From NCBI GenBank assembly GCA_009844405.1, contig VYBO01000003.1:11214-75213 (forward strand): a DNA stretch of 64,000 nt. Direction: 5' to 3'. The position numbers and the translations under genes were made by a program. The stretch is from Acidimicrobiaceae bacterium (GTDB lineage: Bacteria > Actinomycetota > Acidimicrobiia > Acidimicrobiales > Aldehydirespiratoraceae). Positions 42,444 to 62,287 of this stretch are shown here, in pieces (position 1 is the stretch's first letter; every line of letters begins with the position of its first letter). The notes under the pieces were generated by a model. It did not search any database, was not told the origin of the DNA, and saw nothing but the letters and a program-made list of their open reading frames with translations.

Positions 42444-42839
42444 TCAGACGGCCCGCACCGACATCTCCGGAGAGTTGCGGATGGTGTTGGACACGTAGCA
42501 GACGCGTGCCGCCGCCTCCAGCAGCCGGTCCTTGACGGCGTCGTCGCAGCCGACATCGACCCGTATCTCGAGGGCCGAGAAACCGGGGCCGTCGTAGGTG
42601 CCGGTCACTTCCACCCCCAGATGGGACAGCTCGATGCCCCGCTTGCCGGCCGCGTGGGCCACCGCGAGGGTTAAGCACGACGACAGCGCGGCCAGCAGGA
42701 GCTCGGTGGGCTGGGGACCCCGGTTGGTCCCTCCATACCTCTCGGGCTCGTCCACGGGAATGGTGAAATCGCCCGAGGACACGTCGCAGCGGTAGGCGCC
42801 CAGCCACCGGGCCGAGACGGTAAGGGTCGGGGTACTCAC
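42444..42839 (-). CDS. OsmC/Ohr-family protein
   Basis: GTNRGPQPTELLLAALSSCLTLAV and AARVCYVSNTI motifs. Start set at GTG 42839 (the track gives 42878). Confidence 0.8.
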   Translation of the reverse strand: MSTPTLTVSARWLGAYRCDVSSGDFTIPVDEPERYGGTNRGPQPTELLLAALSSCLTLAVAHAAGKRGIELSHLGVEVTGTYDGPGFSALEIRVDVGCDDAVKDRLLEAAARVCYVSNTIRNSPEMSVRAV

Positions 42840-42923
42840 GGCGGGCCGTCCTTCAAGCTGCCGGCAGCGAGCCGTCAACTATACGACACCGCTGGATCAC
42901 AAGCGAAAAGGCCGTGGTCTAGG

Positions 42924-43577
42924 ATGCACGCCCGTGATGGAGCCATGACCGGCCAGGCGGCGGCCAGCGCTGGGGGCGCGGACGGGCGGCCCAACCACGT
43001 GAGCGGCGAGACGCTGAGCGCGGTCGTGAACTCGATCGGGCCCAAGATCCGCCACCTGCGCAAGCAGTGGAACCTGTCGCTGCAGCAGCTCGCCGACCGC
43101 TCCGACGTGTCGACCGCGGCCATTCACAAGGTGGAGCAGGGCACCATGGTGCCCACCATCACAACCCTGCTGAAGCTGGCCGCGGCCCTCGAGCAGCCGG
43201 TGGCGTACTTCGTGGACGAGGAGCTGGAGTCGCCGCCCTACGTGGTCTTCACCCCTGCGTCCGAGCGCCGATCGATCTACACCCCCCATGAGGGCCTCAC
43301 CCTGGAGGGAATCTCCGGTCCCTACGGCCAGTACTTCGTGGCCACCGCCATCGCCGAGGTGGCGCCAGGCGCCGGCAGCGGCCAGTCCCCGCTCCACCAC
43401 GCGGGCGAGGAGCTGATCCACATGCTGTCGGGGCGACTCGACGTGGACGTCTCCGGTCAGACCTTCCAGCTGCGCAAGGGCGACTCGATCCACTTCCGGA
43501 CCGACCACGAGCACCGCTGGCGCAACCCCGCCAAGCACCCGGCCCGCGCCGTGTGGACGGCGCTCAGGCCCTCCTGA
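42924..43577 (+). CDS. XRE-family HTH regulator with a C-terminal cupin domain
   Basis: HTH IRHLRKQWNLSLQQLADRSDVSTAAIHKVEQG and cupin HHAGEELIHMLSGRLDVDVSGQTFQLRKGDSIHF. Confidence 0.85.
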   Translation: MHARDGAMTGQAAASAGGADGRPNHVSGETLSAVVNSIGPKIRHLRKQWNLSLQQLADRSDVSTAAIHKVEQGTMVPTITTLLKLAAALEQPVAYFVDEELESPPYVVFTPASERRSIYTPHEGLTLEGISGPYGQYFVATAIAEVAPGAGSGQSPLHHAGEELIHMLSGRLDVDVSGQTFQLRKGDSIHFRTDHEHRWRNPAKHPARAVWTALRPS

Positions 43578-45207: not shown

Positions 45208-46608
45208 TCAGGCGAGGCGGCGGTCCAGGTCGAGGAGGGCCTGCCGGAAGCACTCGATGGGGGCGTGGGCCACCCCGGCGCCGACCTGGCCCGAGCCGTC
45301 GGAGACGTGGACGATCCCGGTGTTCACCGCAGGGGTTGTCGAGCTCTCGACCACCCGCCGGACGTCGACCCCCAGCGGGGTGCCGGCGTTGTCGAGAACG
45401 GGCAGCCGGAGACGGGTGCTGGTCCCGGCACAGATACGGCTCATGGCTGCGGTGACCGCGGCCGCGTCGGCCATCCTGCCCCCGAGGAAGCCGGCCACCG
45501 CGGGCGAGTTGGCCGCGGCCGCTCCACCGAGGCCCACCAACTCCAGCACGGCACTGTCGCCGATGTCGGGGGCGCTCGTGTCCGGTCCCTGACTGGGGTA
45601 GTACAGGGCGTTCTGCACCGGCGGCGACGCCGCGATGTGCCACGTACCGGAGTCGCCGGCCAGACGGATGCCGTAGGTGGTGCCGTTGCGGGCCATGGAG
45701 GTGACGATGCTCGATTCGGGCACCTGGCCGGCCCACTCGGTGAGGGAGCGAGCGCCCGCCATGGCGATGTTGAGGAACATCAGATGGTTGGTGCTCAGGA
45801 AGTCGGCCACCTCGCCGATCCTGTCCGTGCCGGCGCGGACCAGGTGCGGCAGCAGGTCGCGCAGCAGGAGGTTGGTGGTGGCCTGGACCCGCATGTGGAC
45901 GTCGTCGCCCATGGTGATGCCCTGGGCGGCCAGAGAGAAGACGTCGATTGGACCGACCCGGTCGAGGGCCCGGGCCAGCGTCGGAGCCAGCGCGTCGCGC
46001 AGGAATCTGAGGCGCTCGATGGCTTCATCGGAGTCCACCCCGAACCAGGGGACGGCCCCCGAGCCCTGGTTGAGGCTGGAATAGGCCGTGGCGCCTCCGG
46101 CGTCGACGGAGACCACGTACACCGGAGCGCAGGGCCCGATGGCACTGGCCATGGGCACCACCGTGGAGTGCTCGTTGGCCGCCCCGAGCCGGATCTCGCC
46201 GGCGTTCAACATGCGGTCGGCGGCGTCGCGGTCCGGGGCCCACTCCTCGGCCACGACCGCGGCGCGGACCGAGCGCCGGAGCGGGTCGCACATCTCGGGC
46301 CAGCCGATGGGCGGGCCGCAGTGAAGGATCGTGCCCGACTCGAGACCCTCGATGACCGCGCCGGCCGTCTCGACGCCGAGCAGCATCGGCACACCCCGGT
46401 CGAGGCGGTCGATCACCTCAGCGTTGGCCGCGTCGATCCGGTCGGCGGCGGGGCCCAGCAGCCTGGCAAGGGCGGCCACCGCCTCCGTGTCGCCGCCGGC
46501 CGGGATGCGCCAGTCCACCCCCACCGCGGGCGCGCCCTGATCGCGTACGGCCGTCTCGAACCGCTCCAGCCCGATGTTGACGACCGCGACCCGTTCGGGC
46601 AGCCCCAC
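45208..46608 (-). CDS. DUF1116 protein (YlbE/AllG-like)
   Basis: 466 aa. Segments ILHCGPPIGWPEMCDPLRRS and GDDVHMRVQATTNLL match my recollection of DUF1116. Confidence 0.65.
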   Translation of the reverse strand: MGLPERVAVVNIGLERFETAVRDQGAPAVGVDWRIPAGGDTEAVAALARLLGPAADRIDAANAEVIDRLDRGVPMLLGVETAGAVIEGLESGTILHCGPPIGWPEMCDPLRRSVRAAVVAEEWAPDRDAADRMLNAGEIRLGAANEHSTVVPMASAIGPCAPVYVVSVDAGGATAYSSLNQGSGAVPWFGVDSDEAIERLRFLRDALAPTLARALDRVGPIDVFSLAAQGITMGDDVHMRVQATTNLLLRDLLPHLVRAGTDRIGEVADFLSTNHLMFLNIAMAGARSLTEWAGQVPESSIVTSMARNGTTYGIRLAGDSGTWHIAASPPVQNALYYPSQGPDTSAPDIGDSAVLELVGLGGAAAANSPAVAGFLGGRMADAAAVTAAMSRICAGTSTRLRLPVLDNAGTPLGVDVRRVVESSTTPAVNTGIVHVSDGSGQVGAGVAHAPIECFRQALLDLDRRLA

Positions 46609-46695: not shown

Positions 46696-47259
46696 TTACG
46701 ACATCGTGACCAGCAGCGCGCTGGGCGCGTCGCGGGCCGCGGGCAGGCGCAGGCAGGCGTCGTCGGGAATCTCGCTCTCGGCCAGGTTGCCGGCGCGGGA
46801 AAGTTCGAATGTCATCGGCTGATGGGGCAGCCCGTAGTAGGCCACGGGCGGGCCGTTGTGCTCCCATCCCAGACGCTCGAAGAAGTTGACGTTCTGGAGT
46901 TGAACAAAGGCGTCCATCACGTCGCCCCCCGCGGCGGCTGCGGTGGAGACCGCGAACCGCACGAGCCGCATGCCCACGATGCCGGCCCGGTGCCCGGGCA
47001 GCACGGCCAGCCGGTCACCCTTCCAGCGGCCGGCCGTGTCGGTGCGGTACAGCCGCACAGTCCCGATCGCCACCGATCCCCGCCCCGCCAGAACATGGAC
47101 GGTGTCGGGGTCGCGATCCCAGTCGTCGACGTCGGTGAAGGGGATGACCCGCTGCTCCTCGACGAAGATGCGGTGACGGATACGCATATGCCAGCTCTTC
47201 GCGGCCGGGTCGACGGCCCGCCAACACACGATCCGCTCGGAAGGCCTCAACTGCGTCAA
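46696..47259 (-). CDS. GNAT acetyltransferase (MSMEG_0567-like)
   Basis: HRIFVEEQRVIP...VAIGTVRLY...LAVLPGHRAGIVGMRLVRFAV. Candidate TTG start at 47259 overlaps the radical-SAM stop (TTGA); the alternative is ATG 47187. The track's extension to 48003 is discarded. Confidence 0.7.
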   Translation of the reverse strand: MTQLRPSERIVCWRAVDPAAKSWHMRIRHRIFVEEQRVIPFTDVDDWDRDPDTVHVLAGRGSVAIGTVRLYRTDTAGRWKGDRLAVLPGHRAGIVGMRLVRFAVSTAAAAGGDVMDAFVQLQNVNFFERLGWEHNGPPVAYYGLPHQPMTFELSRAGNLAESEIPDDACLRLPAARDAPSALLVTMS

Positions 47260-48398
47260 CCTGTCGCTCGCACCGGAATGAGCTTGCGGTCGCCGTTGGC
47301 CTGCAGCTCTCGCTCCAGCGCCCCCACCGGCGAGCACGCCTGGCAACGTGCGCAGCCCGCGGCGACCAGGTCCGCGGTCAAACCCCGCTCCACCAGGAAC
47401 GGGGCGACCTTGCGGGCGACGTTCTCCACGTAGTCCGATGGGGGGGGCATCCAGTCGCCCATGAGGGAGCCGGGCACGGGCCGGAGCGGCACGATGAAGG
47501 GGTACACGCCGATGTCGGCGGCCCGCCGGCAGCCCTCCACGATCAGGTCCGGGTCCTCGCCCATGCCCAGGATCACATAGGTGGAGACCTGGCCCTCGCC
47601 GAAGCGCTCGACGGCGTACTCCCAGGTCTCGAAGTACCGCTCGACGCCGGTGCGGTACTTCGGGGGCGCGACCCACTCCAGCACGGCCGGGTCGAAGGTC
47701 TCGATGTGGATCCCCACCGAGTCGATGCCCCGGTCGGCGACCTGGTCGATCACGCTCAGGTCGTCGGGCGGCTCGAACTGCACCTCGACCGGGAGGCCCG
47801 AGGACTCCTTCATGGCCTCCCCGCACCTGGCCACATAGAGGGCTCCCTTGTCGCGGCCGTAAGTGGAGCCGGTGGTCAGCGTGACATCCACGGCGCCGTC
47901 CAGTTCCTTGGCCGCCACCGCCACCTCGGCCAGCTGCGCCGGCCGCTTCACCAGCACAGTGCTGCCTGAGGCCAGCGACACGCCAATGCCGCAGAAGCGG
48001 CACTGGTCCTCGTTGCCCCAGTAGGCGCAGGTCTGCAGGACGGTGCTGGCCAGCGAGTCGAGGTGCATCAGGGCAAGGTGCCAGTACGGGACGCCGTCGT
48101 CGGTGGTCAGGCCGTAGAAGCGGGGCCGGTCGGCCGGAGCGGCGCCGGCGAGGCGGATCCCGTCGGCGTATATGCCGAAGCCGACGTCCTCGGGCTCCAG
48201 CGTGTAGGGGGAGTCGGCCACGAAGGAGGCGTCCACCGGAACCGTCACCGCGGTTCCCTCGATCCAGACCATCCCCGCGTCCGAGGGGCCGGCCCCGCCG
48301 GGCCGGCGCTCGAAGGGAGCGTTGATCCTCAGACCCTTGAACTGGAGGTCGATTATGAGCTCGGCCAGCGACACTGCGCCATTATTACCACCGGACAT
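47256..48398 (-). CDS. radical SAM-like enzyme (MSMEG_0568-like)
   Basis: 380 aa. Cys cluster CAYWGNEDQCRFCG and TIM-barrel-like periodicity. Placed next to the GNAT as in Nit1C clusters. Confidence 0.7.
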   Translation of the reverse strand: MSGGNNGAVSLAELIIDLQFKGLRINAPFERRPGGAGPSDAGMVWIEGTAVTVPVDASFVADSPYTLEPEDVGFGIYADGIRLAGAAPADRPRFYGLTTDDGVPYWHLALMHLDSLASTVLQTCAYWGNEDQCRFCGIGVSLASGSTVLVKRPAQLAEVAVAAKELDGAVDVTLTTGSTYGRDKGALYVARCGEAMKESSGLPVEVQFEPPDDLSVIDQVADRGIDSVGIHIETFDPAVLEWVAPPKYRTGVERYFETWEYAVERFGEGQVSTYVILGMGEDPDLIVEGCRRAADIGVYPFIVPLRPVPGSLMGDWMPPPSDYVENVARKVAPFLVERGLTADLVAAGCARCQACSPVGALERELQANGDRKLIPVRATG

Positions 48399-48426
48399 GG
48401 GGATGCGCCGTGTCCGCCGGTAGACC

Positions 48427-48795
48427 CTAATGGGCGTGGTCGTGGTGGTGATGGTCGTGGCCGCCGTGGTCGTGGTCGTGGCCAGGCGGGCGGGCTGCGT
48501 AAGCCGCGGCCAACTCGTCCACCTCGGATCCCGCCACGATCTCCCGTTCGGCGACGATCGACTCGAGGGCCTCCTGCCAGCGCTCGTAGTACCGGTACTC
48601 CCCCACCGGGTCCGACTCCCAGCGCTGCACGGCCGCGATCAGGTGGTCGCGGAAGTCGTCCCAGGTGAAGTGGCCGCCCTCCACCAGAGCCATGGCCATC
48701 GCGAAGCTGCGCCCCTGCCAGGGCGCGTCGAACACCAGCTCGCCGTTGAGCCGTGGCGGAGCGGCCGGGCCTTCGATGTCGAGAGTGAGAGCCAC
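48427..48795 (-). CDS. nitrile hydratase accessory (activator) protein with a His-rich tail
   Basis: 122 aa. Beta-subunit-like N-terminus FDAPWQGRSFAMAMAL and tail PPGHDHDHGGHDHHHHDHAH. Confidence 0.8.
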   Translation of the reverse strand: MALTLDIEGPAAPPRLNGELVFDAPWQGRSFAMAMALVEGGHFTWDDFRDHLIAAVQRWESDPVGEYRYYERWQEALESIVAEREIVAGSEVDELAAAYAARPPGHDHDHGGHDHHHHDHAH

Positions 48796-48805
48796 CGCCG
48801 CCCGT

Positions 48806-49402
48806 TCAGCCTGCGCTGACCTTGGCCACCCCCACCATGGCGTCGCGGGTCACCAGCGCAGCCAGCTCGTCCTCGCCGAGGTCGTCGGTGCCTTCGGGGC
48901 GCTGGGGAAGGACCAGGTAGCGGTTCTCGGCGCTGGAGTCCCACACCCGGACCTCCACATCGTCGTCGAGGTCCAGGCCCATCTCGCTCAGCAGCGTGCG
49001 GGGCTCGCGCACCATGCGACTGCGGTAGGCGGGGTCCTTGTACCACTCCGGCGGCAGGCCCAGTACCGGCCACGGGTAGCACGAGCACAGCGTGCACACC
49101 ACCACGTTGTGCACGTCGTCGGAGTTCTCGACCACCACGATGTGCTCGCCCTGGGGTCCGGCGAAGCCCAGCTCCTTGATGGCGCCGGTGCCGTCGGCCA
49201 GCAGGTGCTGGCGGTAGTCGGGGTCGGTCCACGCCTTGGCCACCACCTTGGCGCCGTTCATGGGGCCGACGTCGTTGACGAAACGGTTGATGAAGCCGTC
49301 GAGCACCTCGGACTTGACCAGGCCGCGCTCGGTCAGCAGGGACTCCAGCGCCTCGGTCCGCACCGCGGGCGGGAGCCGGTCGGTGGTGTTGGTGTCAGCC
49401 AT
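48806..49402 (-). CDS. nthA: nitrile hydratase alpha subunit, cobalt type
   Basis: 198 aa with the metal-site motif [11 protein letters not shown] (the Co type has T and Y where the Fe type has S and T). Confidence 0.95.
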
Positions 49403-50062
49403 CTAGGTCGCCTCCAGGTAGCTCTCGAACAGGTCGATGCGCAGCGTGGCCGCCTCCGCGTCCGGGCCCCACAGCTCGGCGGAGTCGAACTCCACGGTGT
49501 ACACGTGCTGGGGGTTCTCGCCCTCGAAGTGGGCGTTGGTGTCGGGCAGCAGCGCGGCGGGGCGCAGCGCGTGGACGGTGCCGGTGCGGCCCCGGATGTA
49601 GCCGGGCATCCGGGTGTGGCCGCCGGTGCGAATGTCCTTGGCCCGCACCCGGTCACCCGGTGAGAAGGCGGGCTCGTCGTCGATCTCGCGCAGCGAGCCG
49701 GCGCCGCCTCGCTCGTAGACGGGCTTGTTCTCCTCGACGTCGGCCGGGTCGTCGACCGGCTCCCCCATCAGGTTCCGGGCCCTGGCCTCCACCGCTCCGG
49801 GCGAGAGCACGCCGCTGTCGACCAGCAGCGTCTCGGCACAGGCCAGCCAGCGACCGTAGTAGCCGTCGGCCAGGTAGTCGTACGGGTGCAGGCGCTCCAG
49901 GCCGTGGCGGAAGGCGTCGAGGTTGGTGCCCGACAGGCCCATCGACATGGCTCCCATGGCGAAGGCCCGGCCGTGCCACCGCTCCCGGAAGACCGGCTCG
50001 TCGGGGTCGATGGCCACGGTGCCCCAGCCCTGCATTCCCCCCATGTCATGTATGCCGTCCAT
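49403..50062 (-). CDS. nthB: nitrile hydratase beta subunit
   Basis: 219 aa from ATG 50062. Begins MDGIHDMGGMQGWG, the canonical beta N-terminus. The track's extension to 50476 is discarded. Confidence 0.9.
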   Translation of the reverse strand: MDGIHDMGGMQGWGTVAIDPDEPVFRERWHGRAFAMGAMSMGLSGTNLDAFRHGLERLHPYDYLADGYYGRWLACAETLLVDSGVLSPGAVEARARNLMGEPVDDPADVEENKPVYERGGAGSLREIDDEPAFSPGDRVRAKDIRTGGHTRMPGYIRGRTGTVHALRPAALLPDTNAHFEGENPQHVYTVEFDSAELWGPDAEAATLRIDLFESYLEAT

Positions 50063-50162
50063 CGGTGCCTCCCGTTCTGGTGGATTACTCGATCGCCGAC
50101 CCAGAATGCCAACTTTGCCAACTATATGGTGGGAGCGGGCCGCAAGAGGAGCGAAGCGCCGC

Positions 50163-50555
50163 CTAACGCGCGCCGGCCCTCGTCTCAAGCGACGTTGTGC
50201 GCTCGCCGAGCGCCGCTGTGGCGGCCAGGGCCTGCAGATGGAGTTCCACCATCCGGTCATGGAGTGCGACGACCCGGTCGCCCTGCTCGGCGATGGCCGC
50301 CATGGCCTCACGGTGCAGCCCGTCGGCATGGCCCCGCAGCCCGATCCCCTGCTCGGCGATGGCCGCCAAGACGGTGGTGTGCTCCTCGGCTCGCTGAGCG
50401 TTCTGCTTGAGCAGATAGTGCATGAGCACGCCGACGACCCCCGCCAGTCCCGACCCCATAACGGAAATAAAAGCAATCATCATGAAAAGCATCATATAGT
50501 ACTGAGGAGTCAGTGGCAACATCGGCGCTTGACCGGCTCTCTCACCCCCGTGCAA
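50163..50555 (-). CDS. hypothetical small membrane protein with an internal AAIAEQG repeat
   Basis: One TM helix (YYMMLFMMIAFISVMGSGLAGVVGVLM) and a duplicated segment (VLAAIAEQGIGL / AMAAIAEQGDRV). Start uncertain and the 5' region is AT-rich. Confidence 0.4.
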   Translation of the reverse strand: MHGGERAGQAPMLPLTPQYYMMLFMMIAFISVMGSGLAGVVGVLMHYLLKQNAQRAEEHTTVLAAIAEQGIGLRGHADGLHREAMAAIAEQGDRVVALHDRMVELHLQALAATAALGERTTSLETRAGAR

Positions 50556-52062
50556 CGAGAGCCCGGGCCTGGGCTAGGAGGCTCTCCTCGGTCTGGGCGT
50601 GGCGCTTCCGGGCCTCGACCGCCCGGGCTCGTAGCCGGGCCGCGTGGTCGGAGAACTCCTCGGCCATCGACCTGACTTCGCCGGGGGATGCTCCGCCGGT
50701 CGCCCGGCGGGTGGCGACGATCCGTCGGGGGTCGAGCGCTTCGGCCAGATCGGCCGGATCGAGCCCGAGATGCCGGCCGCAGACCGCCTCCGCAGCGTCG
50801 TCGAGCATCTCCGGGGTGATGTCCAGTCCTCGCAGCCCCCGACCGCTGGCAGCCCGAACTGCCTGTCCCACCACGTTGTAGGCCGTGCGGTAGTCGACGC
50901 CGCCGGCGACCATCACGTACTCGGCGAGGTCGGTGGCTTGGGTGAAGCCCCGCTCGAGCTCGGACCACATCCGCTCGGCGTTCACGGTCAGGGTCTTGAC
51001 GACTCCGGTCGTCAGGGCGCTCACCCGGATGGTGAAGTCGAGGGCCCGCGGGATCTCCCCGTAGGCGAAGATCAGATTGTCGCTGCGAGCCGACGGGCTC
51101 TTGACCACGGCCAGGAATCCGCTCATCCTGCCGATCAGAACGCCGCTGGCCCCCCTGATGATGGACAGCGAGTAGGGATTGCGCTTCTGGGGCATCAGCA
51201 CCGAGGCCCGGGTGAACGGCCCAGCGAGGTCGACGTAGTCGAACTCCTGGCTCGACCAGATCTCGAGGTCCTCGGCCAGCTTGGCCTGGTTGGCGATCAT
51301 GCTGGCCGAAGTGGCGAGCAGGTCGATGAAGACGTCGGTCTGCCACATGGCGTCGCGGGTGTGGGCGATGACCCCGTCGAACCCGAGCGCGTCGGCGATG
51401 GCGTCCCTGTCGTCGAGCAGCCGGCTGCCGTTGACGCAGCCCGCGCCTCCAGGGCTGGTGTTCACCTGGTCGAGGGCGGCCGAGAACCGCTCACCGTCAC
51501 GCAGCGCGGGTGGAACGAACGCGAGGAGGTAGTGCCCGAATGTCGACGGCTGGGCCTGCTGGAGGTAGGTCTGGTCGCCCATGAAGGTCTCAGCGTGGTC
51601 GGCGGCGACCGCAGAGGCCGCCGACGCGAAGTCGGCCCCCACCTCGATGAGGTGTGCCGTCTGGGACCGCAGCAGCAGCCTCAGCGCTACCCGGGCCGCC
51701 TCCCGCCGGGGACGACCAGCATGGAGCCACCCGGCGGAGTCGCCGATGCGTTGCGCGAAGTGGCGCTCCCGCGAGTTGTAGACCTCCCCGGTGGCGGCGT
51801 CGTACGGGAAGTCGGCGGGGTCGGTGCGGTGGGCTTCCAGCAGCACGCCCAGCAGCGCGGCCGCGGCCGGCTCGGGAATGAGGCTCCGGGCCCGTAGGTC
51901 GAGCACGTGACCCAGGTCGGCCAGGTTCAGACCGTGGTGCAGCAGCGGTGCGTCGGCGATCTCCCAGGCGAACCCGGCGTCGACCAGTTCCCGGGCCGGC
52001 GCCTCCGACGACGGCCCGGCGAGCCGCGGCACCGGGTTTGATCCCTTCGGGTCCACACTCAC
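50542..52062 (-). CDS. argininosuccinate lyase-like fumarate-lyase-family enzyme
   Basis: 506 aa. YLQQAQPSTFGHYLL and SVLMPQKRNPYSL (signature loop). Confidence 0.8.
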   Translation of the reverse strand: MSVDPKGSNPVPRLAGPSSEAPARELVDAGFAWEIADAPLLHHGLNLADLGHVLDLRARSLIPEPAAAALLGVLLEAHRTDPADFPYDAATGEVYNSRERHFAQRIGDSAGWLHAGRPRREAARVALRLLLRSQTAHLIEVGADFASAASAVAADHAETFMGDQTYLQQAQPSTFGHYLLAFVPPALRDGERFSAALDQVNTSPGGAGCVNGSRLLDDRDAIADALGFDGVIAHTRDAMWQTDVFIDLLATSASMIANQAKLAEDLEIWSSQEFDYVDLAGPFTRASVLMPQKRNPYSLSIIRGASGVLIGRMSGFLAVVKSPSARSDNLIFAYGEIPRALDFTIRVSALTTGVVKTLTVNAERMWSELERGFTQATDLAEYVMVAGGVDYRTAYNVVGQAVRAASGRGLRGLDITPEMLDDAAEAVCGRHLGLDPADLAEALDPRRIVATRRATGGASPGEVRSMAEEFSDHAARLRARAVEARKRHAQTEESLLAQARALVARG

Positions 52063-52065
52063 CGG

Positions 52066-53415
52066 TTAGGCCCACTCATCGGTCTCGGCGGATCGGCGGC
52101 CGGAGGCGGCGGCTACGACCGCGTCGACCATCGTCGCGGCTGCGCCGGTCTCGGGCTTGTCCAGTCCTTCCAGCTCGGCTGGCGACGCGACTTGCTCCAG
52201 GACCTCCTTCAGCGGGCGGCCGCTGAGCCGGGCGGCCCGGTACGCCTGCTGGAGTTCGTCGTTGGCCCGGTGCTTGCCCAGGCGGGCCGACAGGCGCCTC
52301 AACAGTTCCTGGGATCCGAAGTCGCCCATGGTCTCCAGGTTGGCCGCCATCGCCCCGGCGTCCACCTCGATGCCGGCCGCGAGGCCGCGGGCCAGGCTGA
52401 GCTGGGCCAGCAGGTAGTGGCCAATCTCCGGCAGCAGCACCCACTCCGTCTTCCAGGTCCGGCCGTCGCGCTCGTGGTCGCCGACCATGGTCTCGGTCAG
52501 GGTGCTTGCGGCCGAGCGCACTAGCCGGGCCAGGGTCACCATCTGCTCGCTGCGCTCGGGGTTGCGCTTGTGGGGCATGGTGATGCTGCCCATCGTGGTC
52601 TCCGACGCGGCCTCGGCCACCTCGCCGATCTCGCGCCGCTGGAGGTTGTACACCTCGTTGGCCATGCGGGCCATCGTGGCCGACACCAGAGCCGCGTTGC
52701 TGGCGAACTCCGCGATGCGATCGCGCGCTGCGATCCAAGAGATGGCCGGCTCGCCCAGCCCGAGACGCCGGCAGAAGCGGCCGCGCAGCTCCGGGCCGAG
52801 GTCCCGGTAGAAGCCCAGGGCCCCGACCGCGCCGGCGAGCTGGCCCACTACCAGGCGGGGACGGCTCTGGCTCCAGCGCTCCAGGTGCCGGGCCGTCTCG
52901 TCGGCCCAGGAGGCGACCTTGAGCCCGAACGTCACCGGGGCGCCCGGCTGGCCGTGGGTGCGGCCCAGCATGGGCGAGTCGCGATGGCGCCCGGCCAGAT
53001 CGAGCAGCGAACCCTCCACGGCCCGCAGGTCCCGCCACACGATCGCCCCGACGTCGCGCATCTCCAGCGCGGCCGCGGTGTCGGAGACGTCCTGCACGGT
53101 GGCGCCGTAGTAGACGTGCTCGCGGGCCTCAGCGGGCAGCTGGGCCTGTAGCTCGCGCACCAGCCCCGCGGCGGAGTGCGAGGTCCGCCGGGTCTCGGCG
53201 CCGACCGCAGCCGGATCGAGGCGCTCGCCGTCCAGCCCGTCGATCGCTTGGGCCGAGGACGCCGGAATGATCCCAAGGTCGGCCTGTGCGGCTGCGAGGG
53301 CCTTGAGGACATCCACCCAGCGAGACAGGCGGGCCCGCTCGCTGAAGATGGCCACCGATTCCGCGGTCGACCAGCCGTGCCCGTAGATGGCTGAATCGAT
53401 CAGGTGCGCGTCCAC
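52066..53415 (-). CDS. adenylosuccinate lyase / 3-carboxymuconate cycloisomerase-like fumarate-lyase-family enzyme
   Basis: 449 aa. GRTHGQPGAPVTFG and GSITMPHKRNPERSE. Confidence 0.8.
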   Translation of the reverse strand: MDAHLIDSAIYGHGWSTAESVAIFSERARLSRWVDVLKALAAAQADLGIIPASSAQAIDGLDGERLDPAAVGAETRRTSHSAAGLVRELQAQLPAEAREHVYYGATVQDVSDTAAALEMRDVGAIVWRDLRAVEGSLLDLAGRHRDSPMLGRTHGQPGAPVTFGLKVASWADETARHLERWSQSRPRLVVGQLAGAVGALGFYRDLGPELRGRFCRRLGLGEPAISWIAARDRIAEFASNAALVSATMARMANEVYNLQRREIGEVAEAASETTMGSITMPHKRNPERSEQMVTLARLVRSAASTLTETMVGDHERDGRTWKTEWVLLPEIGHYLLAQLSLARGLAAGIEVDAGAMAANLETMGDFGSQELLRRLSARLGKHRANDELQQAYRAARLSGRPLKEVLEQVASPAELEGLDKPETGAAATMVDAVVAAASGRRSAETDEWA

Positions 53416-54317
53416 GTGCCGTCTCCGGAACCGGCCAGTGTGCGGAGGCCCTCATGCACCTCGATGAGGGTGGCCCCCCAAGGCACCATCACCGTGCGTG
53501 CCTCTTGCTCGAGGCCCTCATCCAGCATGCAGCAGCGGCTCAGCACGAGCCCGTCGACGGACTCGTCGGCGCCGATCAGGCGGCGCGGGCACCAGTCGAT
53601 GGTCCGGGCCGGCTCGGCGCCGTAGAACCAGCGGTGGATCTGCTGGGAGCGCTCGCAGCCGAGCAGGGTCGATCCGGCGGAGCTCGGCCGCTCGTCCAGG
53701 TGCGACACCGCTACGCCCGCTATGCCGACCCCGCCGCCCCGGCAGGGGACGATCAGCCCTTCGGGTACCGGCTCGGTCACCAGCGCCCGGCTGTCGACGA
53801 TCCGCTCCTTCACCGCGATGGGAGGCAGATCCTCGGCGAAGTCCAAGACCCTGGCCACCTGGTCGGCGAGCTTCGAGGGCTCGGGCGGCACCACGTCCAC
53901 CACGGTGATCTGAACCGGCGCGGCATTCAGGAGGAAGCTGACATGGCGGTACCGGCCCTCCACCACGACGCAGCGCCGGTCGGGGCATCGACGGGCGAGC
54001 CGGGCCAGGTGGGAAGCGATGCCCAGGTCGGCGTCGTCGTCCTTCATGTAGGCGCAATCCTCGGCGGAGGCCAGCACCCGGGCGGCCGCCGCCGGCGAGA
54101 ACAGCTCGTCGCTGCCGTCGCGGGCTAGCTCCACCAGCGCGCAGCGGCCGGGATCGCCGTCGAGGCGGGCCACCACGAACCGGGTGCGGTAGTAGGCCTC
54201 CCGTCCGGTGAACCGGGCCACCAGATCATCCGGCGCCAGGCTCGGGACCGCGGCGACCGACACCTGCCGGTACCGCGACGGCATGATGTTGGGTGAGGCG
54301 GGATCTAGGTCGAACAT
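53400..54317 (-). CDS. hypothetical protein (Cys-containing, no family recognised)
   Basis: 305 aa from ATG 54317 (MFDLDPASPN...). Overlaps both neighbours by 13 and 16 nt, consistent with operon membership. Confidence 0.55.
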   Translation of the reverse strand: MFDLDPASPNIMPSRYRQVSVAAVPSLAPDDLVARFTGREAYYRTRFVVARLDGDPGRCALVELARDGSDELFSPAAAARVLASAEDCAYMKDDDADLGIASHLARLARRCPDRRCVVVEGRYRHVSFLLNAAPVQITVVDVVPPEPSKLADQVARVLDFAEDLPPIAVKERIVDSRALVTEPVPEGLIVPCRGGGVGIAGVAVSHLDERPSSAGSTLLGCERSQQIHRWFYGAEPARTIDWCPRRLIGADESVDGLVLSRCCMLDEGLEQEARTVMVPWGATLIEVHEGLRTLAGSGDGTWTRT

Positions 54318-55093
54318 GCGGCAGCGAGGCGGGTTCGGAGTGTGTCGGATCGCAGCCCGCGCCGGAGGGCCTCCACTGCGAGAATCTCGTCGCGCGAGAT
54401 GTTCGCCAGGTTGACGTTCGCCCCCAGGTGGTTCACGAGCCACGCCTGCTGTTCGCGCCGGGGGGCCTCGTACACCACCGGCGCATCCGTTCCAGCGCCC
54501 TCGAGGGCGTCCACGAGGTCGGCCCTCACCAGCCCGTCGGCGGTGTAGAGACCCACGGTCCCGCTCTCCCGACCCTCCGCCACCAGCCACGAGGCGCCGC
54601 TGTCGATATCGCGCCGGGCCTCCTCGGCCCACTCGTGCGGGACGGCCTCATGGCGCGGATCCTTGCTTCCCACCTCGGCGAACACCTCGAAACCGCGGGC
54701 TCGGGCGCCGACGATCAGGTCCCGCTTGGCTGCGGCAGGCAGGCCGGTCGCGCCGCGCGACACCTCCACGCAGTCGAAGCCGAGGCCGCCCGCCCAGTCG
54801 AAGAAAGCCTCGGTCCGTCCCTGAAGCCAGGCCGCCTCCAACAGCGTGCCCCCGGGGCAGGCCTTGATGTCGTGGGCTTGGAGCAACTCGATCTTGGATG
54901 CGATCGCGGCGTCGACGTAGGCGGTGCCGAAACCGGACTTCCAGACGTCCACGAACGCACCGTGGGCCTCCACCAGCGCTTCGATGCCCGCCAGCGGCGT
55001 GCCGGGGTCGATGACGTGGGTGATGCCGAGCCGGCGCGGTTTGGTCGTCCGGGCGGCCGTTCGAAGGAACCGGGGAGACTCAGGAATGGGCAT
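54305..55093 (-). CDS. comA: (2R)-phospho-3-sulfolactate synthase (ComA family)
   Basis: 262 aa. KPRRLGITHVIDPG, VDVWKSGFGTAYV, CPGGTLLEAA, CVEVSRG, FAEVGSKD, VAEGRESGTVG, YEAPRREQQAWL, NVNLANI and LRRGLRSDTL are colinear with ComA. Confidence 0.85.
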   Translation of the reverse strand: MPIPESPRFLRTAARTTKPRRLGITHVIDPGTPLAGIEALVEAHGAFVDVWKSGFGTAYVDAAIASKIELLQAHDIKACPGGTLLEAAWLQGRTEAFFDWAGGLGFDCVEVSRGATGLPAAAKRDLIVGARARGFEVFAEVGSKDPRHEAVPHEWAEEARRDIDSGASWLVAEGRESGTVGLYTADGLVRADLVDALEGAGTDAPVVYEAPRREQQAWLVNHLGANVNLANISRDEILAVEALRRGLRSDTLRTRLAAACST

Positions 55094-55979
55094 CTGGACG
55101 ATCTCCTGACCTGCGCCGCACGTCGTTGGGCCGGGGGCCCATTCTACGTGTGCTTGCCCGAGCGAGTTCGGTGGCGGCCAGCGCCACGCCGGCCGCGAGG
55201 GCCCGGCCTGACGTGGCGCCCGCGCCGGCCAGTGACGCCGCCGCCCGGCGCATCCCGGACTGATCGCCCGACGCCGCCGCGTCGAGCAGGGTGTGGGCCG
55301 GCTGGACGCTCTGGCCGGCCGCGGCCCACCTGAGGAAGGCGCGGCTCAACCGGGTGGTGCGGGCGTTGCCGGCCAGTTCGGCGAGGGCGCGGCGCCGGCT
55401 CGGATCGATGGCGGCGACCAGCAGGATCCCCGCGAGCACGTCGTCGCCGCTCGGAGTCAAGCCGTCGCCGCGTCCCTGGAGCCGGCGGGACGCGGCCGTC
55501 GGGTCCCAGCGGCGCAGATCGTGGGTCACCGGCTCCCAGACAGCTGCCAGTTCGGGGGCAGCACACACAGCCAGGTCTCGCCATGCCGGCAGACCGGCGC
55601 AGAGACGCTCGGGCAGGTGCGGCGCCCAGGGCGCGCCCCCGTCGAGGCGGACTTGCAGCCGGCCCGCCCTGAGCACGTCGCCAGAGACGCTCACCCGGTC
55701 GTGCAGGGCCGGCGGTTCGGCCAGGTCCTCCACGACGAGGTGCAGCGGCCCGGGCCAGGATCGGGGACCCAGCACCGCGAACAACGTCTCGGAGGGGCCG
55801 GAGACATAGAAGCCGTCGCGGAACACCCCGGCCACCCGGCCGGCGAAACCCTCTGACGCCGCCTCCAGCGCGGCCTGGCCGACCGAGACCGCGGAGACGG
55901 GGCCGGCTGCTGCTGTACGGTGCGGCCGTGCCACCGCCGGACCAGCCGTCGCCGGAGGAGTTCCCACTGGAGCAGTCAT
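55080..55979 (-). CDS. DUF2877 protein (YlbF/AllH-like)
   Basis: GRGDGLTPSGDDVLAGILL motif. The true start is probably downstream of 55979, because the ORF's 5' end overlaps the divergent gene. Confidence 0.65.
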   Translation of the reverse strand: MTAPVGTPPATAGPAVARPHRTAAAGPVSAVSVGQAALEAASEGFAGRVAGVFRDGFYVSGPSETLFAVLGPRSWPGPLHLVVEDLAEPPALHDRVSVSGDVLRAGRLQVRLDGGAPWAPHLPERLCAGLPAWRDLAVCAAPELAAVWEPVTHDLRRWDPTAASRRLQGRGDGLTPSGDDVLAGILLVAAIDPSRRRALAELAGNARTTRLSRAFLRWAAAGQSVQPAHTLLDAAASGDQSGMRRAAASLAGAGATSGRALAAGVALAATELARASTRRMGPRPNDVRRRSGDRPDAHS

Positions 55980-57695: not shown

Positions 57696-57803
57696 GGTCC
57701 CTCGCCTCTCATCTACTATAAGAAAGTCGGTTCTGCTATCGGCAGATCCGTGGGCTCGGTGCCGGTCCCGGCGGACCCGGCGGTCTGGCGAGAGGAGTGA
57801 GTC

Positions 57804-62271: not shown

Positions 62272-62287
62272 GCGGCCGGTGGAGTGC

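What the first reader, a model, noticed from the sequence alone, without database searches (positions are those of the whole stretch)
48427..50062. Cobalt-type nitrile hydratase sits where Nit1C clusters carry the nitrilase
Immediately upstream of, and co-oriented with, the radical SAM and GNAT pair are NHase beta (MDGIHDMGG...), NHase alpha with the Co-type site VCTLCSCY, and an accessory protein with a His-rich tail. No CN-hydrolase (nitrilase) gene is present anywhere in the window. If the cluster assignment holds, this is a non-orthologous replacement. It implies that the pathway's essential step is nitrile hydration or hydrolysis of a cluster-made or cluster-imported nitrile. It also implies the immediate product here would be an amide rather than an acid plus ammonia. 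No amidase is visible either.
Basis: inference. Interest (0 to 1): 0.7.

Follow-up and report, generated by a model that had tools for sequence, protein, structure and literature searches.

The report
Nitrile hydratase in Nit1C-like supercluster
A normal-looking cobalt nitrile hydratase is a conserved but optional part of a large, undescribed actinobacterial gene cluster related to the enigmatic Nit1C "nitrilase" cluster, which offers a new way to work out what these clusters do.

Summary
On the minus strand, 50062-48427 encodes NHase beta, NHase alpha (VCTLCSCY) and a His-tailed activator. An MSMEG_0568-family radical SAM gene and an MSMEG_0567-family GNAT follow directly. The 64 kb hold no nitrilase or amidase.

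This is not a canonical Nit1C cluster. It is a roughly 25-gene "B-type" relative. It keeps the rSAM, GNAT, AIR-synthase-like, MSMEG_0572 and glycosyltransferase families. It lacks the nitrilase, MSMEG_0570 and MSMEG_0569 families. It adds coenzyme-M-type genes (ComA, XcbA, XcbD, XcbC), an AllFGH-like carbamoyltransferase with carbamate kinase, OsmC, a CoA-disulfide-reductase-like flavoprotein and cbtAB.

NHase is present in at least 35 species (Aldehydirespiratoraceae, other Acidimicrobiia, Kribbella). It co-diverges with its neighbours. Its ancestral position is at the head of the OsmC-flavoprotein-MSMEG_0572 operon, next to an XRE-cupin regulator. The adjacency to the rSAM gene is a derived rearrangement. 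Both operons in the window carry the same upstream motif.

Related clusters carry a Nit6803 nitrilase or an Amidohydro_2 enzyme instead. One Kribbella has none, and also lacks cbtA. So the NHase is an integrated, cobalt-supplied, facultative nitrile-to-amide module. Its substrate is unknown.

The parts
49403..50062 (-). Nitrile hydratase beta subunit (219 aa)
   Evidence: TIGR03888 213.5 bits against cut-off 152.2, and both Pfam NHase_beta domains. It is 45% identical to the P. putida Co-type beta subunit, PDB 3QXE. The FRHGLE, YYGRW and GHTRMPGY motifs are retained.
48806..49402 (-). Nitrile hydratase alpha subunit (198 aa), cobalt-type site VCTLCSCY
   Evidence: TIGR01323 303.9 against cut-off 249.85. 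It is 59% identical to the P. thermophila Co-NHase alpha subunit. VCTLCSCY is present in all 39 homologous copies examined.
48427..48795 (-). NHase accessory/activator protein with a His-rich C-terminal tail
   Evidence: TIGR03889 71.9 against cut-off 46, and Pfam NHase_beta_N. The tail reads GHDHDHGGHDHHHHDHAH.
50117..50126 (-). Conserved promoter/operator-like motif TATAGTTGGC, 55 nt upstream of the NHase beta start
   Evidence: This is one of only two exact copies in the 64 kb. Across 1.44 Mb of related loci, 53 of 56 ATAGTTG[AG]C sites lie just upstream of NHase beta or OsmC.
50163..50495 (-). Small 110-aa ORF with one hydrophobic N-terminal segment, inserted between xcbC and NHase beta. 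It is specific to the window lineage.
   Evidence: No family hit. Only L005 has a homologue, at 55%. The xcbC-NHb gap is 483 nt here against about 100-150 nt in most relatives.
47256..48398 (-). MSMEG_0568-family radical SAM protein
   Evidence: TIGR04043 360.8 against cut-off 303.7. It is 61-98% identical to B-type cluster copies. It is 36-43% identical to the listed nitrilase-linked plasmid copies, and all 513 plasmid records are below 60%.
46696..47229 (-). MSMEG_0567/Sll0786-family GNAT
   Evidence: TIGR04045 89 against cut-off 68.45.
45208..46608 (-). AllG-like (DUF1116) subunit
   Evidence: PF06545 218 bits.
42924..43577 (+). XRE-HTH plus cupin regulator (PuuR-like), divergent from OsmC
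   Evidence: NCBIfam PuuR 67 bits, below cut-off. In relatives its homologue lies divergent from NHase beta.
42874..42883 (-). Second exact copy of the motif TATAGTTGAC, upstream of OsmC
42444..42839 (-). OsmC/Ohr-family protein. The start codon is uncertain.
   Evidence: NCBIfam OsmC-like hits. The start was re-set downstream of the motif.
40996..42318 (-). CoA-disulfide-reductase-like flavoprotein. It is not of the MSMEG_0569 family.
   Evidence: TIGR03385 264.9 bits, below cut-off 578.8. There is no meaningful BLASTP similarity to MSMEG_0569.
40722..40982 (-). Conserved 86-aa protein, a positional counterpart of MSMEG_0570 but not homologous to it
   Evidence: No HMM hit. BLASTP against MSMEG_0570 gives E=0.29. 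It is conserved at 51-100% across the B-type loci where it is detected.
40191..40679 (-). MSMEG_0572/Sll0783-family DsrE-like protein
   Evidence: TIGR04044 201.5 against cut-off 109.85. It is 45% identical to the Rhodococcus Nit1C copy.
50542..52062 (-). XcbC-like aspartase/fumarase-superfamily lyase
   Evidence: NF052535 434.3 bits, below cut-off 575.
52066..53415 (-). XcbD-like adenylosuccinate-lyase-type enzyme
   Evidence: NF052536 507.4 bits, below cut-off 600.
53400..54317 (-). XcbA-family protein (DUF7714)
   Evidence: NF052538 300.7 against cut-off 150, and PF24830 273 bits.
54305..55093 (-). Phosphosulfolactate synthase (ComA/XcbB)
   Evidence: PF02679 240.4 bits. TIGR03849 232.2, below cut-off 280.
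55080..55979 (-). AllH-like subunit
   Evidence: PF11392 70.7 bits and a tblastn match.
55928..56932 (+). sll0787-like AIR-synthase-related protein
   Evidence: TIGR04049 245.3 bits, below cut-off 321.3. The next-best match is methanogenesis marker 2 at 191.9 bits.
56946..57881 (-). Conserved hypothetical protein (h311). In other B-type clusters it lies directly upstream of the rSAM gene.
   Evidence: No family hit. Synteny is shown.
57804..58772 (+). Carbamate kinase
   Evidence: NF009007 317.1 against cut-off 266.
58798..60384 (+). FdrA/AllF-like subunit
   Evidence: NF004760 386.7 bits, below cut-off 433.
60395..61564 (+). MSMEG_0565-family glycosyltransferase
   Evidence: TIGR04047 379.4 against cut-off 259.85.
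61549..62494 (-). cbtB (62494-62288) and cbtA (about 62291-61549), a putative cobalt transporter at the edge of the cluster
   Evidence: CbtA matches PF09490 at 170.6 bits. The CbtB-like peptide carries HEFFHDGRH. There is no cobalamin riboswitch in the window. cbtA co-occurs with NHase across loci.

Best explanation
The three genes encode a catalytically intact cobalt-type nitrile hydratase (beta and alpha subunits) and its His-tailed activator or metallochaperone.

**What it belongs to.** They form a conserved, co-diverging and co-regulated, yet facultative, module of a roughly 25-gene "B-type" relative of the Nit1C cluster. This cluster type is found mainly in Actinomycetota.

**What it does in that cluster.** The NHase supplies the nitrile-converting activity that a Nit6803 nitrilase supplies in canonical Nit1C and in one related B-type cluster. 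It hydrates a small nitrile to its amide in the cytoplasm.

**Cobalt supply.** Cobalt is probably imported by the adjacent CbtAB transporter and inserted with the help of the activator.

**Regulation.** Transcription starts at a promoter/operator element (ATAGTTGRC). The same element precedes the OsmC-flavoprotein-h86-MSMEG_0572 operon. It is presumably controlled by the neighbouring XRE-cupin regulator.

**Fate of the product.** No cluster amidase follows, so ammonia is not released directly. In most relatives an AmiS/UreI-family channel gene sits beside the NHase. This suggests that a small neutral amide, or its nitrile precursor, crosses the membrane.

**Shown:** gene identity, intact active-site motifs, synteny, co-divergence, the shared motif, co-occurrence with cbtA, and alternative enzymes in related clusters.

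**Inferred:** the substrate, the regulator-operator pairing, the cobalt route, the fate of the amide, and functional equivalence to the nitrilase.
For: **Enzyme identity**
- The HMM scores exceed the curated cut-offs for alpha, beta and activator.
- VCTLCSCY and the beta-subunit Arg/Tyr motifs are kept in all 39-40 homologous copies, with no stop codons.
- The closest solved structures are Co-type NHases.

**Integration into the cluster**
- NHase is present in 32 of 61 species-level loci retrieved with the rSAM gene. Three further species were verified through longer flanks.
- It also occurs on metagenome contigs L068-L070, L073 and L074.
- The cluster copies are 82% (alpha) and 72% (beta) identical between Acidimicrobiia and Kribbella. 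They are only 59% and 45% identical to characterised NHases.
- Pairwise identities of NHase and XcbC/XcbD co-vary (Spearman 0.94 over 55 pairs).
- G+C content equals that of the neighbours.

**Shared regulation**
- The window holds two exact motif copies, one upstream of NHase beta and one upstream of OsmC.
- 53 of 56 motif sites in 1.44 Mb lie at those two positions.

**Displacement**
- L035 carries a verified Nit6803 nitrilase (TIGR04048 584.6 against cut-off 502.6) at the end of the homologous OsmC-flavoprotein-h86-MSMEG_0572 operon.
- Eight other loci carry an Amidohydro_2 gene (verified by Pfam in L053) between MSMEG_0572/h311 and the rSAM gene.
- No locus has two of these three enzyme types.
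- In canonical clusters the nitrilase lies beside the rSAM gene.

**Cobalt**
- cbtBA lies at the cluster edge with no B12 riboswitch.
- All five clusters with cbtA whose NHase status could be checked have NHase.
- cbtA was not detected in any locus where no NHase was seen.
- K. pittospori has both. Kribbella sp. NPDC051952 has neither.

**Amide link**
- An AmiS/UreI gene (PF02293, 25.9-30.1 bits against a threshold of 25, full length) lies next to the NHase in 27 loci.
Against: - There is no experimental or metabolite evidence for any substrate.
- Kribbella sp. NPDC051952 has the complete cluster with no NHase, nitrilase or Amidohydro_2. The cluster's core function therefore does not need this step.
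- Canonical nitrilase-linked clusters are distant. Their rSAM is 36-43% identical in the listed records. Three of their families have no homologue here. "Same pathway" is therefore an assumption.
- Ancestrally the NHase is linked to redox genes (OsmC, flavoprotein, DsrE-like protein), not to the rSAM and GNAT genes.
- The window itself has lost the AmiS/UreI gene.
- L068 and L069 have NHase without an adjacent cbtA.
- Amidohydro_2 proteins are not known nitrile enzymes, so the "variable hydrolase slot" may be partly coincidental.
Confidence: 0.5

Rival explanations
1. The NHase is a generic nitrile-scavenging or detoxification module, for example for sponge- or plant-derived nitriles. On this view it has simply settled under a nitrogen- or stress-responsive promoter next to the cluster. 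It shares regulation with the cluster but no substrate or pathway.
For: - It is dispensable. Kribbella sp. NPDC051952 lacks it cleanly.
- The active site and pocket residues are those of ordinary Co-type NHases.
- An AmiS/UreI channel and a cobalt transporter are typical companions of free-standing nitrile/amide operons (the generalisation is my own knowledge).
- Many host genomes are sponge-associated MAGs. Sponges contain nitriles and NHase activity of unknown origin (PMC3766881).
Against: - The same position and gene order are kept across two classes of Actinomycetota, in soil Kribbella as well as in marine MAGs.
- The NHase co-diverges with xcb genes.
- When the operon was split, the upstream motif was kept in front of both halves.
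- No amidase is present to release nitrogen.
Confidence: 0.27
2. The NHase hydrates an S-cyano or N-cyano adduct of a cluster-made coenzyme-M-like thiol. The product is a carbamoyl compound. The AllFGH-like enzyme phosphorolyses this to carbamoyl phosphate, and carbamate kinase then yields ATP, NH3 and CO2. No amidase would be needed.
For: - This accounts for the co-presence of ComA, XcbA, XcbD and XcbC, AllF/G/H and carbamate kinase, a disulfide-reductase-like flavoprotein, a DsrE-like protein and OsmC, and the absence of an amidase.
- AllFGH is a carbamoyltransferase acting on an amide (PMC11326118).
- Nit1C is needed for cyanide assimilation in Pseudomonas (PMC7815647).
- AIR-synthase-superfamily HypE interconverts thiocarboxamide and thiocyanate (own knowledge).
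Against: - This is purely inferential.
- The alpha subunit scores as NHase, not thiocyanate hydrolase (TIGR03887 199 bits against cut-off 291.45).
- XcbE is missing from the window clade, so thiol formation there is uncertain.
- The AllFGH and carbamate kinase genes are also present in clusters without NHase.
Confidence: 0.08
3. The NHase replaced the missing PLP enzyme XcbE of the coenzyme-M-type pathway.
For: In the first tabulation all NHase-bearing loci lacked XcbE, and all XcbE-bearing loci appeared to lack NHase.
Against: - That pattern was an artefact of the 10-kb flanks.
- Kribbella sp. CWNU-51, K. pittospori and the Acidimicrobiia MAG JAOTVU01 carry both XcbE and NHase in one cluster.
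- The chemistry is also implausible.
Confidence: 0.02
4. The NHase is a recent, genome-specific insertion that happens to lie next to the rSAM gene.
For: - Small lineage-specific insertions and deletions flank the NHase.
- These are the 110-aa ORF and the loss of amiS.
Against: - NHase is present in at least 35 species with the same neighbours.
- Its G+C content matches that of its neighbours.
- It co-diverges with neighbouring genes.
Confidence: 0.02

Closest known systems
Nit1C cluster (Podar et al. 2005, PMC1199592). It is called nitBCDEFGH in cyanotrophic Pseudomonas, sll0783-0790 in Synechocystis, and gpr (MSMEG_0565-0572) in M. smegmatis (PMC6039565).
   Same: - It shares the MSMEG_0568 rSAM, MSMEG_0567 GNAT, MSMEG_0572 DsrE-like protein, MSMEG_0565 glycosyltransferase and an sll0787-like AIR-synthase protein.
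- A nitrile-converting enzyme lies immediately upstream of the rSAM gene in the window, as the nitrilase does in canonical clusters such as L072.
   Different: - There is no Nit6803 nitrilase, no MSMEG_0570 and no MSMEG_0569.
- The rSAM is only 36-43% identical to the listed canonical copies.
- The genes are spread over three blocks on both strands.
- They are interleaved with xcb-type, AllFGH/carbamate kinase, OsmC, CoADR-like and cbtAB genes.
- The product of the nitrile step is an amide, not an acid plus ammonia.
Classical Co-type NHase operons: Pseudonocardia thermophila JCM 3095, Pseudomonas putida NRRL-18668, and Rhodococcus rhodochrous J1 L-NHase with its activator and the NhlF cobalt transporter
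   Same: - The beta-alpha-activator gene order is the same.
- The VCTLCSCY site and the conserved beta Arg/Tyr residues are present.
- A cobalt transporter lies nearby.
   Different: - No amidase is linked, whereas many classical operons have one (own knowledge).
- The cobalt transporter is CbtAB rather than NiCoT (own knowledge for NhlF).
- The enzyme is embedded in a much larger non-nitrile cluster.
- The alpha subunit is only 59% and the beta subunit 45% identical to the characterised enzymes.
Toyocamycin nitrile hydratase ToyJKL (own knowledge)
   Same: It is an NHase embedded in a dedicated pathway cluster, acting on a pathway-made nitrile to give an amide end product without an amidase.
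   Different: ToyJKL has three subunits and acts on a deazapurine nucleoside. Nothing here points to such a substrate.
Bacterial coenzyme M biosynthesis genes xcbABCDE of Xanthobacter autotrophicus Py2 (PMC9457059)
   Same: Homologues of XcbB/ComA, XcbA, XcbD and XcbC lie directly upstream of the NHase in one transcriptional direction.
   Different: - XcbE is absent from the window, though relatives have it.
- XcbC and XcbD score below NCBIfam's cut-offs.
- No alkene or epoxide genes are present.
- The link to Nit1C families and to NHase is not described in that work.
Thiocyanate hydrolase (SCNase)
   Same: It belongs to the same metalloenzyme superfamily.
   Different: - The alpha subunit scores below the SCNase cut-off and above the NHase cut-off.
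- The beta subunit is a single polypeptide.

Membership tests
Cobalt-type nitrile hydratase | Alpha subunit matches the family model above the curated cut-off | tested here: met
   TIGR01323 303.9 against 249.85; PF02979 292 bits.
Cobalt-type nitrile hydratase | Beta subunit matches the family model above the curated cut-off | tested here: met
   TIGR03888 213.5 against 152.2.
Cobalt-type nitrile hydratase | Metal-binding motif C-T-L-C-S-C, with Thr and a following Tyr (Co type) rather than Ser and Thr (Fe type) | tested here: met
   VCTLCSCY is present in the window and in all 39 homologous copies. The Co-versus-Fe rule is from my own knowledge.
Cobalt-type nitrile hydratase | Conserved beta-subunit Arg and Tyr residues that contact the oxidised cysteines | tested here: met
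   FRHGLE, YYGRW and GHTRMPGY align with the P. putida Co-type beta subunit.
Cobalt-type nitrile hydratase | Dedicated accessory/activator gene downstream | tested here: met
   TIGR03889 71.9 against 46.
Cobalt-type nitrile hydratase | Cobalt content, cysteine oxidation and nitrile-hydrating activity | not testable with these tools
   This needs the purified protein.
Nit1C cluster | Nit6803-family (sll0784) nitrilase | tested here: not met
   tblastn found no hit in the window or in any Actinomycetota B-type locus. The probe itself scores TIGR04048 584.6 against 502.6.
Nit1C cluster | MSMEG_0568-family radical SAM protein | tested here: met
   TIGR04043 360.8 against 303.7.
Nit1C cluster | MSMEG_0567/Sll0786 GNAT | tested here: met
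   TIGR04045 89 against 68.45.
Nit1C cluster | sll0787-family AIR-synthase-like protein | tested here: inconclusive
   It is the best hit, but at 245.3 bits it is below the cut-off of 321.3.
Nit1C cluster | MSMEG_0572/Sll0783 protein | tested here: met
   TIGR04044 201.5 against 109.85.
Nit1C cluster | MSMEG_0570-family small protein | tested here: not met
   The 86-aa ORF has no HMM hit. BLASTP gives E=0.29. tblastn found none.
Nit1C cluster | MSMEG_0569-family flavin-dependent oxidoreductase | tested here: not met
   The flavoprotein is CoA-disulfide-reductase-like. It has no real similarity to MSMEG_0569.
Nit1C cluster | MSMEG_0565-family glycosyltransferase (present in some Nit1C versions) | tested here: met
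   TIGR04047 379.4 against 259.85.
Nit1C cluster | Compact seven- or eight-gene unit, mostly on one strand | tested here: not met
   The members lie at 40.2-42.3 kb, 46.7-48.4 kb and 55.9-61.6 kb on both strands, with more than 10 other genes between them.
Bacterial coenzyme M pathway (xcbABCDE) | XcbB/ComA and XcbA present | tested here: met
   PF02679 240 bits; NF052538 300.7 against 150.
Bacterial coenzyme M pathway (xcbABCDE) | XcbC and XcbD at equivalog level | tested here: inconclusive
   434.3 against 575 and 507.4 against 600. These are the best hits but are below the cut-offs.
Bacterial coenzyme M pathway (xcbABCDE) | PLP enzyme XcbE | tested here: not met
   There is no homologue in the window. 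It is present in relatives L031, L064 and L075.
Thiocyanate hydrolase | Gamma-subunit model above the cut-off | tested here: not met
   TIGR03887 199 against 291.45.

The most novel reading that the evidence does not exclude
The B-type cluster would be a thiol-cofactor-dependent pathway for assimilating cyanide or cyano groups.

1. A coenzyme-M-like sulfonated thiol, made by the xcb genes, captures cyanide as an S-cyano (or N-cyano) adduct.
2. The NHase hydrates this adduct to a carbamoyl compound.
3. The AllFGH-like enzyme transfers the carbamoyl group to phosphate.
4. Carbamate kinase then yields ATP, NH3 and CO2.
5. The CoADR-like flavoprotein, the DsrE-like protein and OsmC recycle the thiol.

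This would explain why no amidase is needed. It would also give the first biochemical logic for Nit1C-type clusters.
Probability: 0.07. Interest if true: 0.9.

Novelty: new variant of a known kind. Interest (0 to 1): 0.6.

Why it matters
Nit1C has been known since 2005. It is needed for cyanide assimilation in Pseudomonas. In M. smegmatis it is strongly induced by nitrogen starvation. Its chemistry is still unknown.

This work shows that a widespread actinobacterial relative of the cluster carries an NHase, a nitrilase, an Amidohydro_2 enzyme or nothing at comparable positions. The same cluster type is fused to coenzyme-M-type sulfonate genes and to a carbamoyl-phosphate module. That narrows the possible chemistry to a nitrile or cyano group handled alongside sulfur and thiol redox proteins.

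It also identifies culturable test organisms. K. pittospori has NHase and cbtA. Kribbella sp. NPDC051952 has neither. They form a natural plus/minus pair.

Finally, coenzyme-M-type genes turn out to be common in Actinomycetota that have no alkene metabolism genes nearby.

No paper in the searchable library links NHase with Nit1C families or with xcb genes.

Tried and rejected
1. A megablast of the region against plasmids found nothing.
2. My first table suggested that NHase was confined to Aldehydirespiratoraceae and excluded XcbE. That was an artefact of the 10-kb flanks. Look-ups from NHase alpha and XcbE homologues showed NHase in Kribbella and in other Acidimicrobiia together with XcbE. 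"NHase replaces XcbE" is rejected.
3. "Recent insertion" is rejected on conservation, G+C content and co-divergence.
4. I tested whether the 86-aa ORF is MSMEG_0570 and whether the flavoprotein is MSMEG_0569. Both are rejected.
5. Thiocyanate hydrolase membership is rejected.
6. A Rfam scan for a cobalamin riboswitch in front of cbtBA found nothing.
7. The generic sigma-70 and terminator scan of 40-58 kb gave nothing above background. The one exception is a promoter-like site in front of the small inserted ORF.
8. I tried to find XcbE elsewhere in Aldehydirespirator genomes by matching contig lengths among the top 120 XcbE-like proteins. None matched, but this is only weak negative evidence.
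9. An amidase was looked for only through Pfam and NCBIfam scans of called genes, not with a six-frame probe.


Full report
**1. The observation**

The window has about 70% G+C, so I called genes by third-position G+C content. The finding's coordinates hold three minus-strand genes:
- NHase beta, 50062-49403: TIGR03888 213.5 bits against a cut-off of 152.2.
- NHase alpha, 49402-48806: TIGR01323 303.9 against 249.85, with the motif VCTLCSCY.
- An accessory protein, 48795-48427: TIGR03889 71.9 against 46, with a His-rich tail.

After 28 nt comes an MSMEG_0568-family radical SAM gene (TIGR04043 360.8 against 303.7). After a further 26 nt comes an MSMEG_0567-family GNAT (TIGR04045 89 against 68.45).

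The alpha subunit is 59% identical to the Pseudonocardia thermophila Co-NHase alpha subunit. The beta subunit is 45% identical to the Pseudomonas putida Co-type beta subunit. The metal-site and beta Arg/Tyr residues are in place.

No CN-hydrolase was found in the 64 kb. tblastn with a verified Nit6803 nitrilase and two other CN-hydrolases gave nothing. No amidase or formamidase family appears in any called gene.

**2. What surrounds the NHase in the window**

Directly upstream on the same strand lie homologues of the bacterial coenzyme M pathway (pathway in PMC9457059):
- ComA/XcbB (55093-54305).
- An XcbA-family protein (54317-53400; NF052538 300.7 against 150).
- An XcbD-like lyase (53415-52066; 507.4, below the cut-off of 600).
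- An XcbC-like lyase (52062-50542; 434.3, below 575).

Downstream of the GNAT gene lies an AllG-like gene. Further along the minus strand are OsmC, a CoA-disulfide-reductase-like flavoprotein, a conserved 86-aa ORF and an MSMEG_0572-family protein (TIGR04044 201.5 against 109.85). An XRE-cupin regulator and an AAA-wHTH gene lie on the other strand.

On the other side of the xcb genes are:
- an AllH-like gene;
- an sll0787-like AIR-synthase protein (245.3, below 321.3);
- a conserved hypothetical protein (h311);
- carbamate kinase;
- FdrA/AllF;
- an MSMEG_0565-family glycosyltransferase (379.4 against 259.85);
- cbtB-cbtA.

AllFGH is the oxamate carbamoyltransferase of E. coli (PMC11326118).

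**3. Is this a Nit1C cluster?**

Only in part. Nit1C is defined by seven genes: a YchN/DsrE-like protein, a nitrilase, a radical SAM protein, a GNAT, an AIR-synthase-like protein, a roughly 100-aa protein and a flavoprotein. Some versions add a glycosyltransferase (PMC1199592).

An annotated canonical example, Rhodococcus qingshengii pLP1 (L071), shows MSMEG_0572, rSAM, GNAT-AIRS, CN-hydrolase, MSMEG_0570, MSMEG_0569, CN-hydrolase and the glycosyltransferase.

The window's 86-aa ORF and flavoprotein are not homologous to MSMEG_0570 and MSMEG_0569. Its MSMEG_0572 protein is 45% identical to the Rhodococcus copy.

The window's rSAM is 36-43% identical to the listed plasmid-borne copies. All 513 plasmid records are below 60%. 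Nearly all of the 40 listed records have a Nit6803 nitrilase annotated at or overlapping the match.

I therefore call the window's type "B-type". It shares four or five Nit1C families and lacks three.

**4. Comparative survey**

A scan of one genome per species with the rSAM protein returned 61 loci. I mapped the window's proteins and extra probes onto them by tblastn.

- Thirty-two loci, all Aldehydirespiratoraceae or close Acidimicrobiales and many of them sponge-associated MAGs, show the NHase in the window's arrangement.
- My first reading was that NHase was confined to this family and excluded XcbE. That was an artefact of the 10-kb flanks.
- Look-ups starting from NHase alpha and XcbE homologues revealed the fuller order, which is probably ancestral:

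  cbtA, GT<, AllF<, CK<, h311>, rSAM>, GNAT>, AIRS<, AllG>, AllH>, ComA>, XcbA>, XcbD>, (XcbE>), XcbC>, XRE-cupin<, NHb>, NHa>, activator>, (AmiS/UreI>), OsmC>, flavoprotein>, h86>, MSMEG_0572>.

- This order is seen, in full or in part, in:
  - Kribbella sp. CWNU-51 (L064);
  - K. pittospori (L038 with L075);
  - the Acidimicrobiia MAG JAOTVU01 (L031 with L078);
  - two other Aldehydirespiratoraceae genomes (L029 with L062, and L030 with L066);
  - metagenome contigs L068, L069, L070, L073 and L074.
- In the window's own lineage the rSAM-GNAT-AllG segment has moved to lie directly after the NHase.

**5. Is the NHase integrated or a passenger?**

Several results point to integration:
- All 39 alpha copies keep VCTLCSCY without stop codons.
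- The cluster-borne NHases are far closer to each other than to characterised NHases. Window against Kribbella is 82% for alpha and 72% for beta.
- Pairwise NHase identities track XcbC/XcbD identities. Spearman's rho is 0.94 over 55 pairs of 11 loci. The pairs are not independent, so this is descriptive only.
- G+C content matches that of the neighbours.
- A motif, ATAGTTG[AG]C, occurs 56 times in 1.44 Mb of loci. Fifty-three of those sites lie just upstream of, and co-oriented with, NHase beta (25) or OsmC (28).
- In the window the exact 10-mer TATAGTTGRC occurs twice, at 50117-50126 and 42874-42883. Up to one mismatch adds a third, unrelated site, against 0.62 expected by chance.
- Where the NHase still heads the OsmC operon, only the site upstream of NHase beta is seen (L062, L068, L069). 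Where the operon was split, both halves carry the motif. This argues for maintained co-regulation, presumably by the XRE-cupin protein.

**6. Evidence for and against "replacement of the nitrilase"**

For:
- Paraburkholderia elongata (L035) has a B-type rSAM (76% identical) and the homologous OsmC-flavoprotein-h86-MSMEG_0572 operon. That operon ends in a true Nit6803 nitrilase (TIGR04048 584.6 against 502.6).
- Eight loci from unclassified Actinomycetota and Dormiibacterota MAGs carry an Amidohydro_2 gene. In most of them it lies between h311 and the rSAM gene.
- No locus has two of the three enzyme types.

Against:
- Kribbella sp. NPDC051952 (L056 with L076) has the complete cluster, with XRE-cupin directly facing OsmC. 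It has no NHase, nitrilase or Amidohydro_2 anywhere from the glycosyltransferase to MSMEG_0572.
- The nitrile step is therefore facultative, not essential to the cluster.

**7. Cobalt and amide links**
- cbtBA lies at the edge of the cluster (PF09490 170.6 bits; CbtB motif HEFFHDGRH) with no cobalamin riboswitch.
- cbtA accompanies the cluster in every case where it is present and NHase could be verified: the window, L029/L062, L030/L066, L031/L078 and L038/L075.
- cbtA was not detected in any locus where no NHase was seen, including Kribbella sp. NPDC051952.
- L068 and L069 have NHase without an adjacent cbtA.
- In 27 NHase loci a 174-185-aa AmiS/UreI-family membrane protein (PF02293 25.9-30.1 bits against a threshold of 25, full-length match) follows the NHase genes. 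In L062 and L074 it comes after OsmC. The window has lost it.
- This fits a small neutral amide, or its nitrile precursor, crossing the membrane.

**8. Mechanism**

What is shown:
- an intact Co-type NHase with its activator;
- stable membership of a large cluster;
- a shared upstream motif;
- coupling to a cobalt transporter;
- alternative enzymes in related clusters.

What is inferred:
- The enzyme hydrates a small nitrile that is relevant to the cluster's function, as the nitrilase does in canonical Nit1C.
- Cobalt arrives through CbtAB.
- The XRE-cupin protein controls both operons.
- The amide is exported, or handled by something other than an amidase.

I put 0.5 on this integrated-module reading and 0.27 on a generic scavenging module that merely shares regulation.

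A more speculative scheme fits many cluster components but has no direct support. It proposes hydration of an S- or N-cyano adduct of a CoM-like thiol to a carbamoyl compound, followed by AllFGH-like phosphorolysis and then carbamate kinase. I give it about 0.07-0.08.

**9. Novelty**

The enzyme itself is ordinary. The context is not described in the searchable literature. No paper links NHase to Nit1C families, to phosphosulfolactate synthase or to coenzyme M biosynthesis.

What is known of Nit1C function is limited to three things:
- cyanide assimilation in Pseudomonas (PMC7815647);
- GlnR-dependent induction with peroxide resistance and NADPH effects in M. smegmatis (PMC6039565);
- a nitrogen-starvation phenotype in Synechocystis.

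I rate this a new variant of a known kind, with moderate to high interest. It gives concrete, testable constraints on an old open problem, and it points to a natural plus/minus pair of culturable Kribbella strains.

Noticed in passing
window 48399-48426; L001 9348-9905: Most sister genomes (27 loci) carry an AmiS/UreI-family channel gene between the NHase activator and the rSAM gene. In the window, L005, L011, L014, L024, L025 and L027 it is missing. The window has only a 28-nt gap there.
   Followed up: yes
window 50163-50495 (-): A 110-aa ORF with a hydrophobic N-terminus and a lower-G+C leader is inserted between xcbC and NHase beta. It has no family hit and is shared only with L005, at 55%. 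A sigma-70-like site lies at 50519-50491.
   Followed up: partly
window 52062-52066 (XcbD/XcbC junction); L031 17199-18161; L064 4585-5577: The PLP enzyme XcbE lies between XcbD and XcbC in Kribbella and some Acidimicrobiia. It is absent from the window, from all Aldehydirespiratoraceae loci, and from L068 and L069. None of the top 120 XcbE-like proteins sits on a contig of Aldehydirespirator chromosome length. The coenzyme-M-type pathway may therefore be truncated or altered in this lineage.
   Followed up: partly
L014 5317-8268 (also L017, L022): In three relatives ComA and XcbC are missing. In L014 a taurine/sulfonate/nitrate-type ABC transporter (weak SsuA-family binding protein, TauC/SsuC-like permease) sits between XcbD and NHase beta. 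L017 and L022 were not inspected for the insertion. This may mean that a sulfonate is imported instead of made.
   Followed up: partly
L056 + L076 (Kribbella sp. NPDC051952) versus L038 + L075 (K. pittospori): Two Kribbella species carry the same cluster. One has both NHase and cbtA and the other has neither. They form a natural plus/minus pair for experiments.
   Followed up: yes
window 55928-56932 (+): The AIR-synthase-like protein's second-best family match is methanogenesis marker protein 2 (191.9 bits). This is curious, given the adjacent coenzyme-M-type genes.
   Followed up: no
window 56946-57881 (-): h311 is a conserved protein with no family match. In nearly all other B-type clusters it lies directly upstream of the rSAM gene. 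Its function is unknown.
   Followed up: no
window 44056-45180 (+): An AAA_16 ATPase with a winged-helix domain lies between AllG and the XRE regulator. It is present only in the window, L001, L006, L011 and L057, and looks like a lineage-specific insertion.
   Followed up: partly
window 31599-38930: This is a lower-G+C stretch (63-67%). It holds a DUF4143 ATPase, a 1414-aa NACHT protein resembling the antiphage EruA (815.5 bits, below the cut-off of 1000), a BglII-like endonuclease and an MT-A70 methyltransferase with an HTH domain. It is probably a defence island beside RNase HII.
   Followed up: no
window 62659-63999 (+): An Mrr-type nuclease domain is fused to a ResIII/DEAD helicase, and the gene runs off the end of the window. 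It marks the right-hand boundary of the cluster.
   Followed up: no
window 8058-8728 (-): A PIN-domain toxin and a MazE/AbrB-type antitoxin form a gene pair.
   Followed up: no
L006, L008, L020, L057 (XcbD-XcbC gap about 4.7 kb); L010, L034 (XcbC-NHb gap 2.2-6.8 kb): The junctions around xcbC are hot spots for insertions in different Aldehydirespirator genomes. The inserted genes were not examined.
   Followed up: no
L067 (Paraburkholderia hospita) and L035 (P. elongata): B-type clusters with 76% identical rSAM genes also occur in Paraburkholderia. One has a P450 and ComA/XcbA. The other has a Nit6803 nitrilase and transposase remnants. This implies horizontal transfer between phyla.
   Followed up: partly
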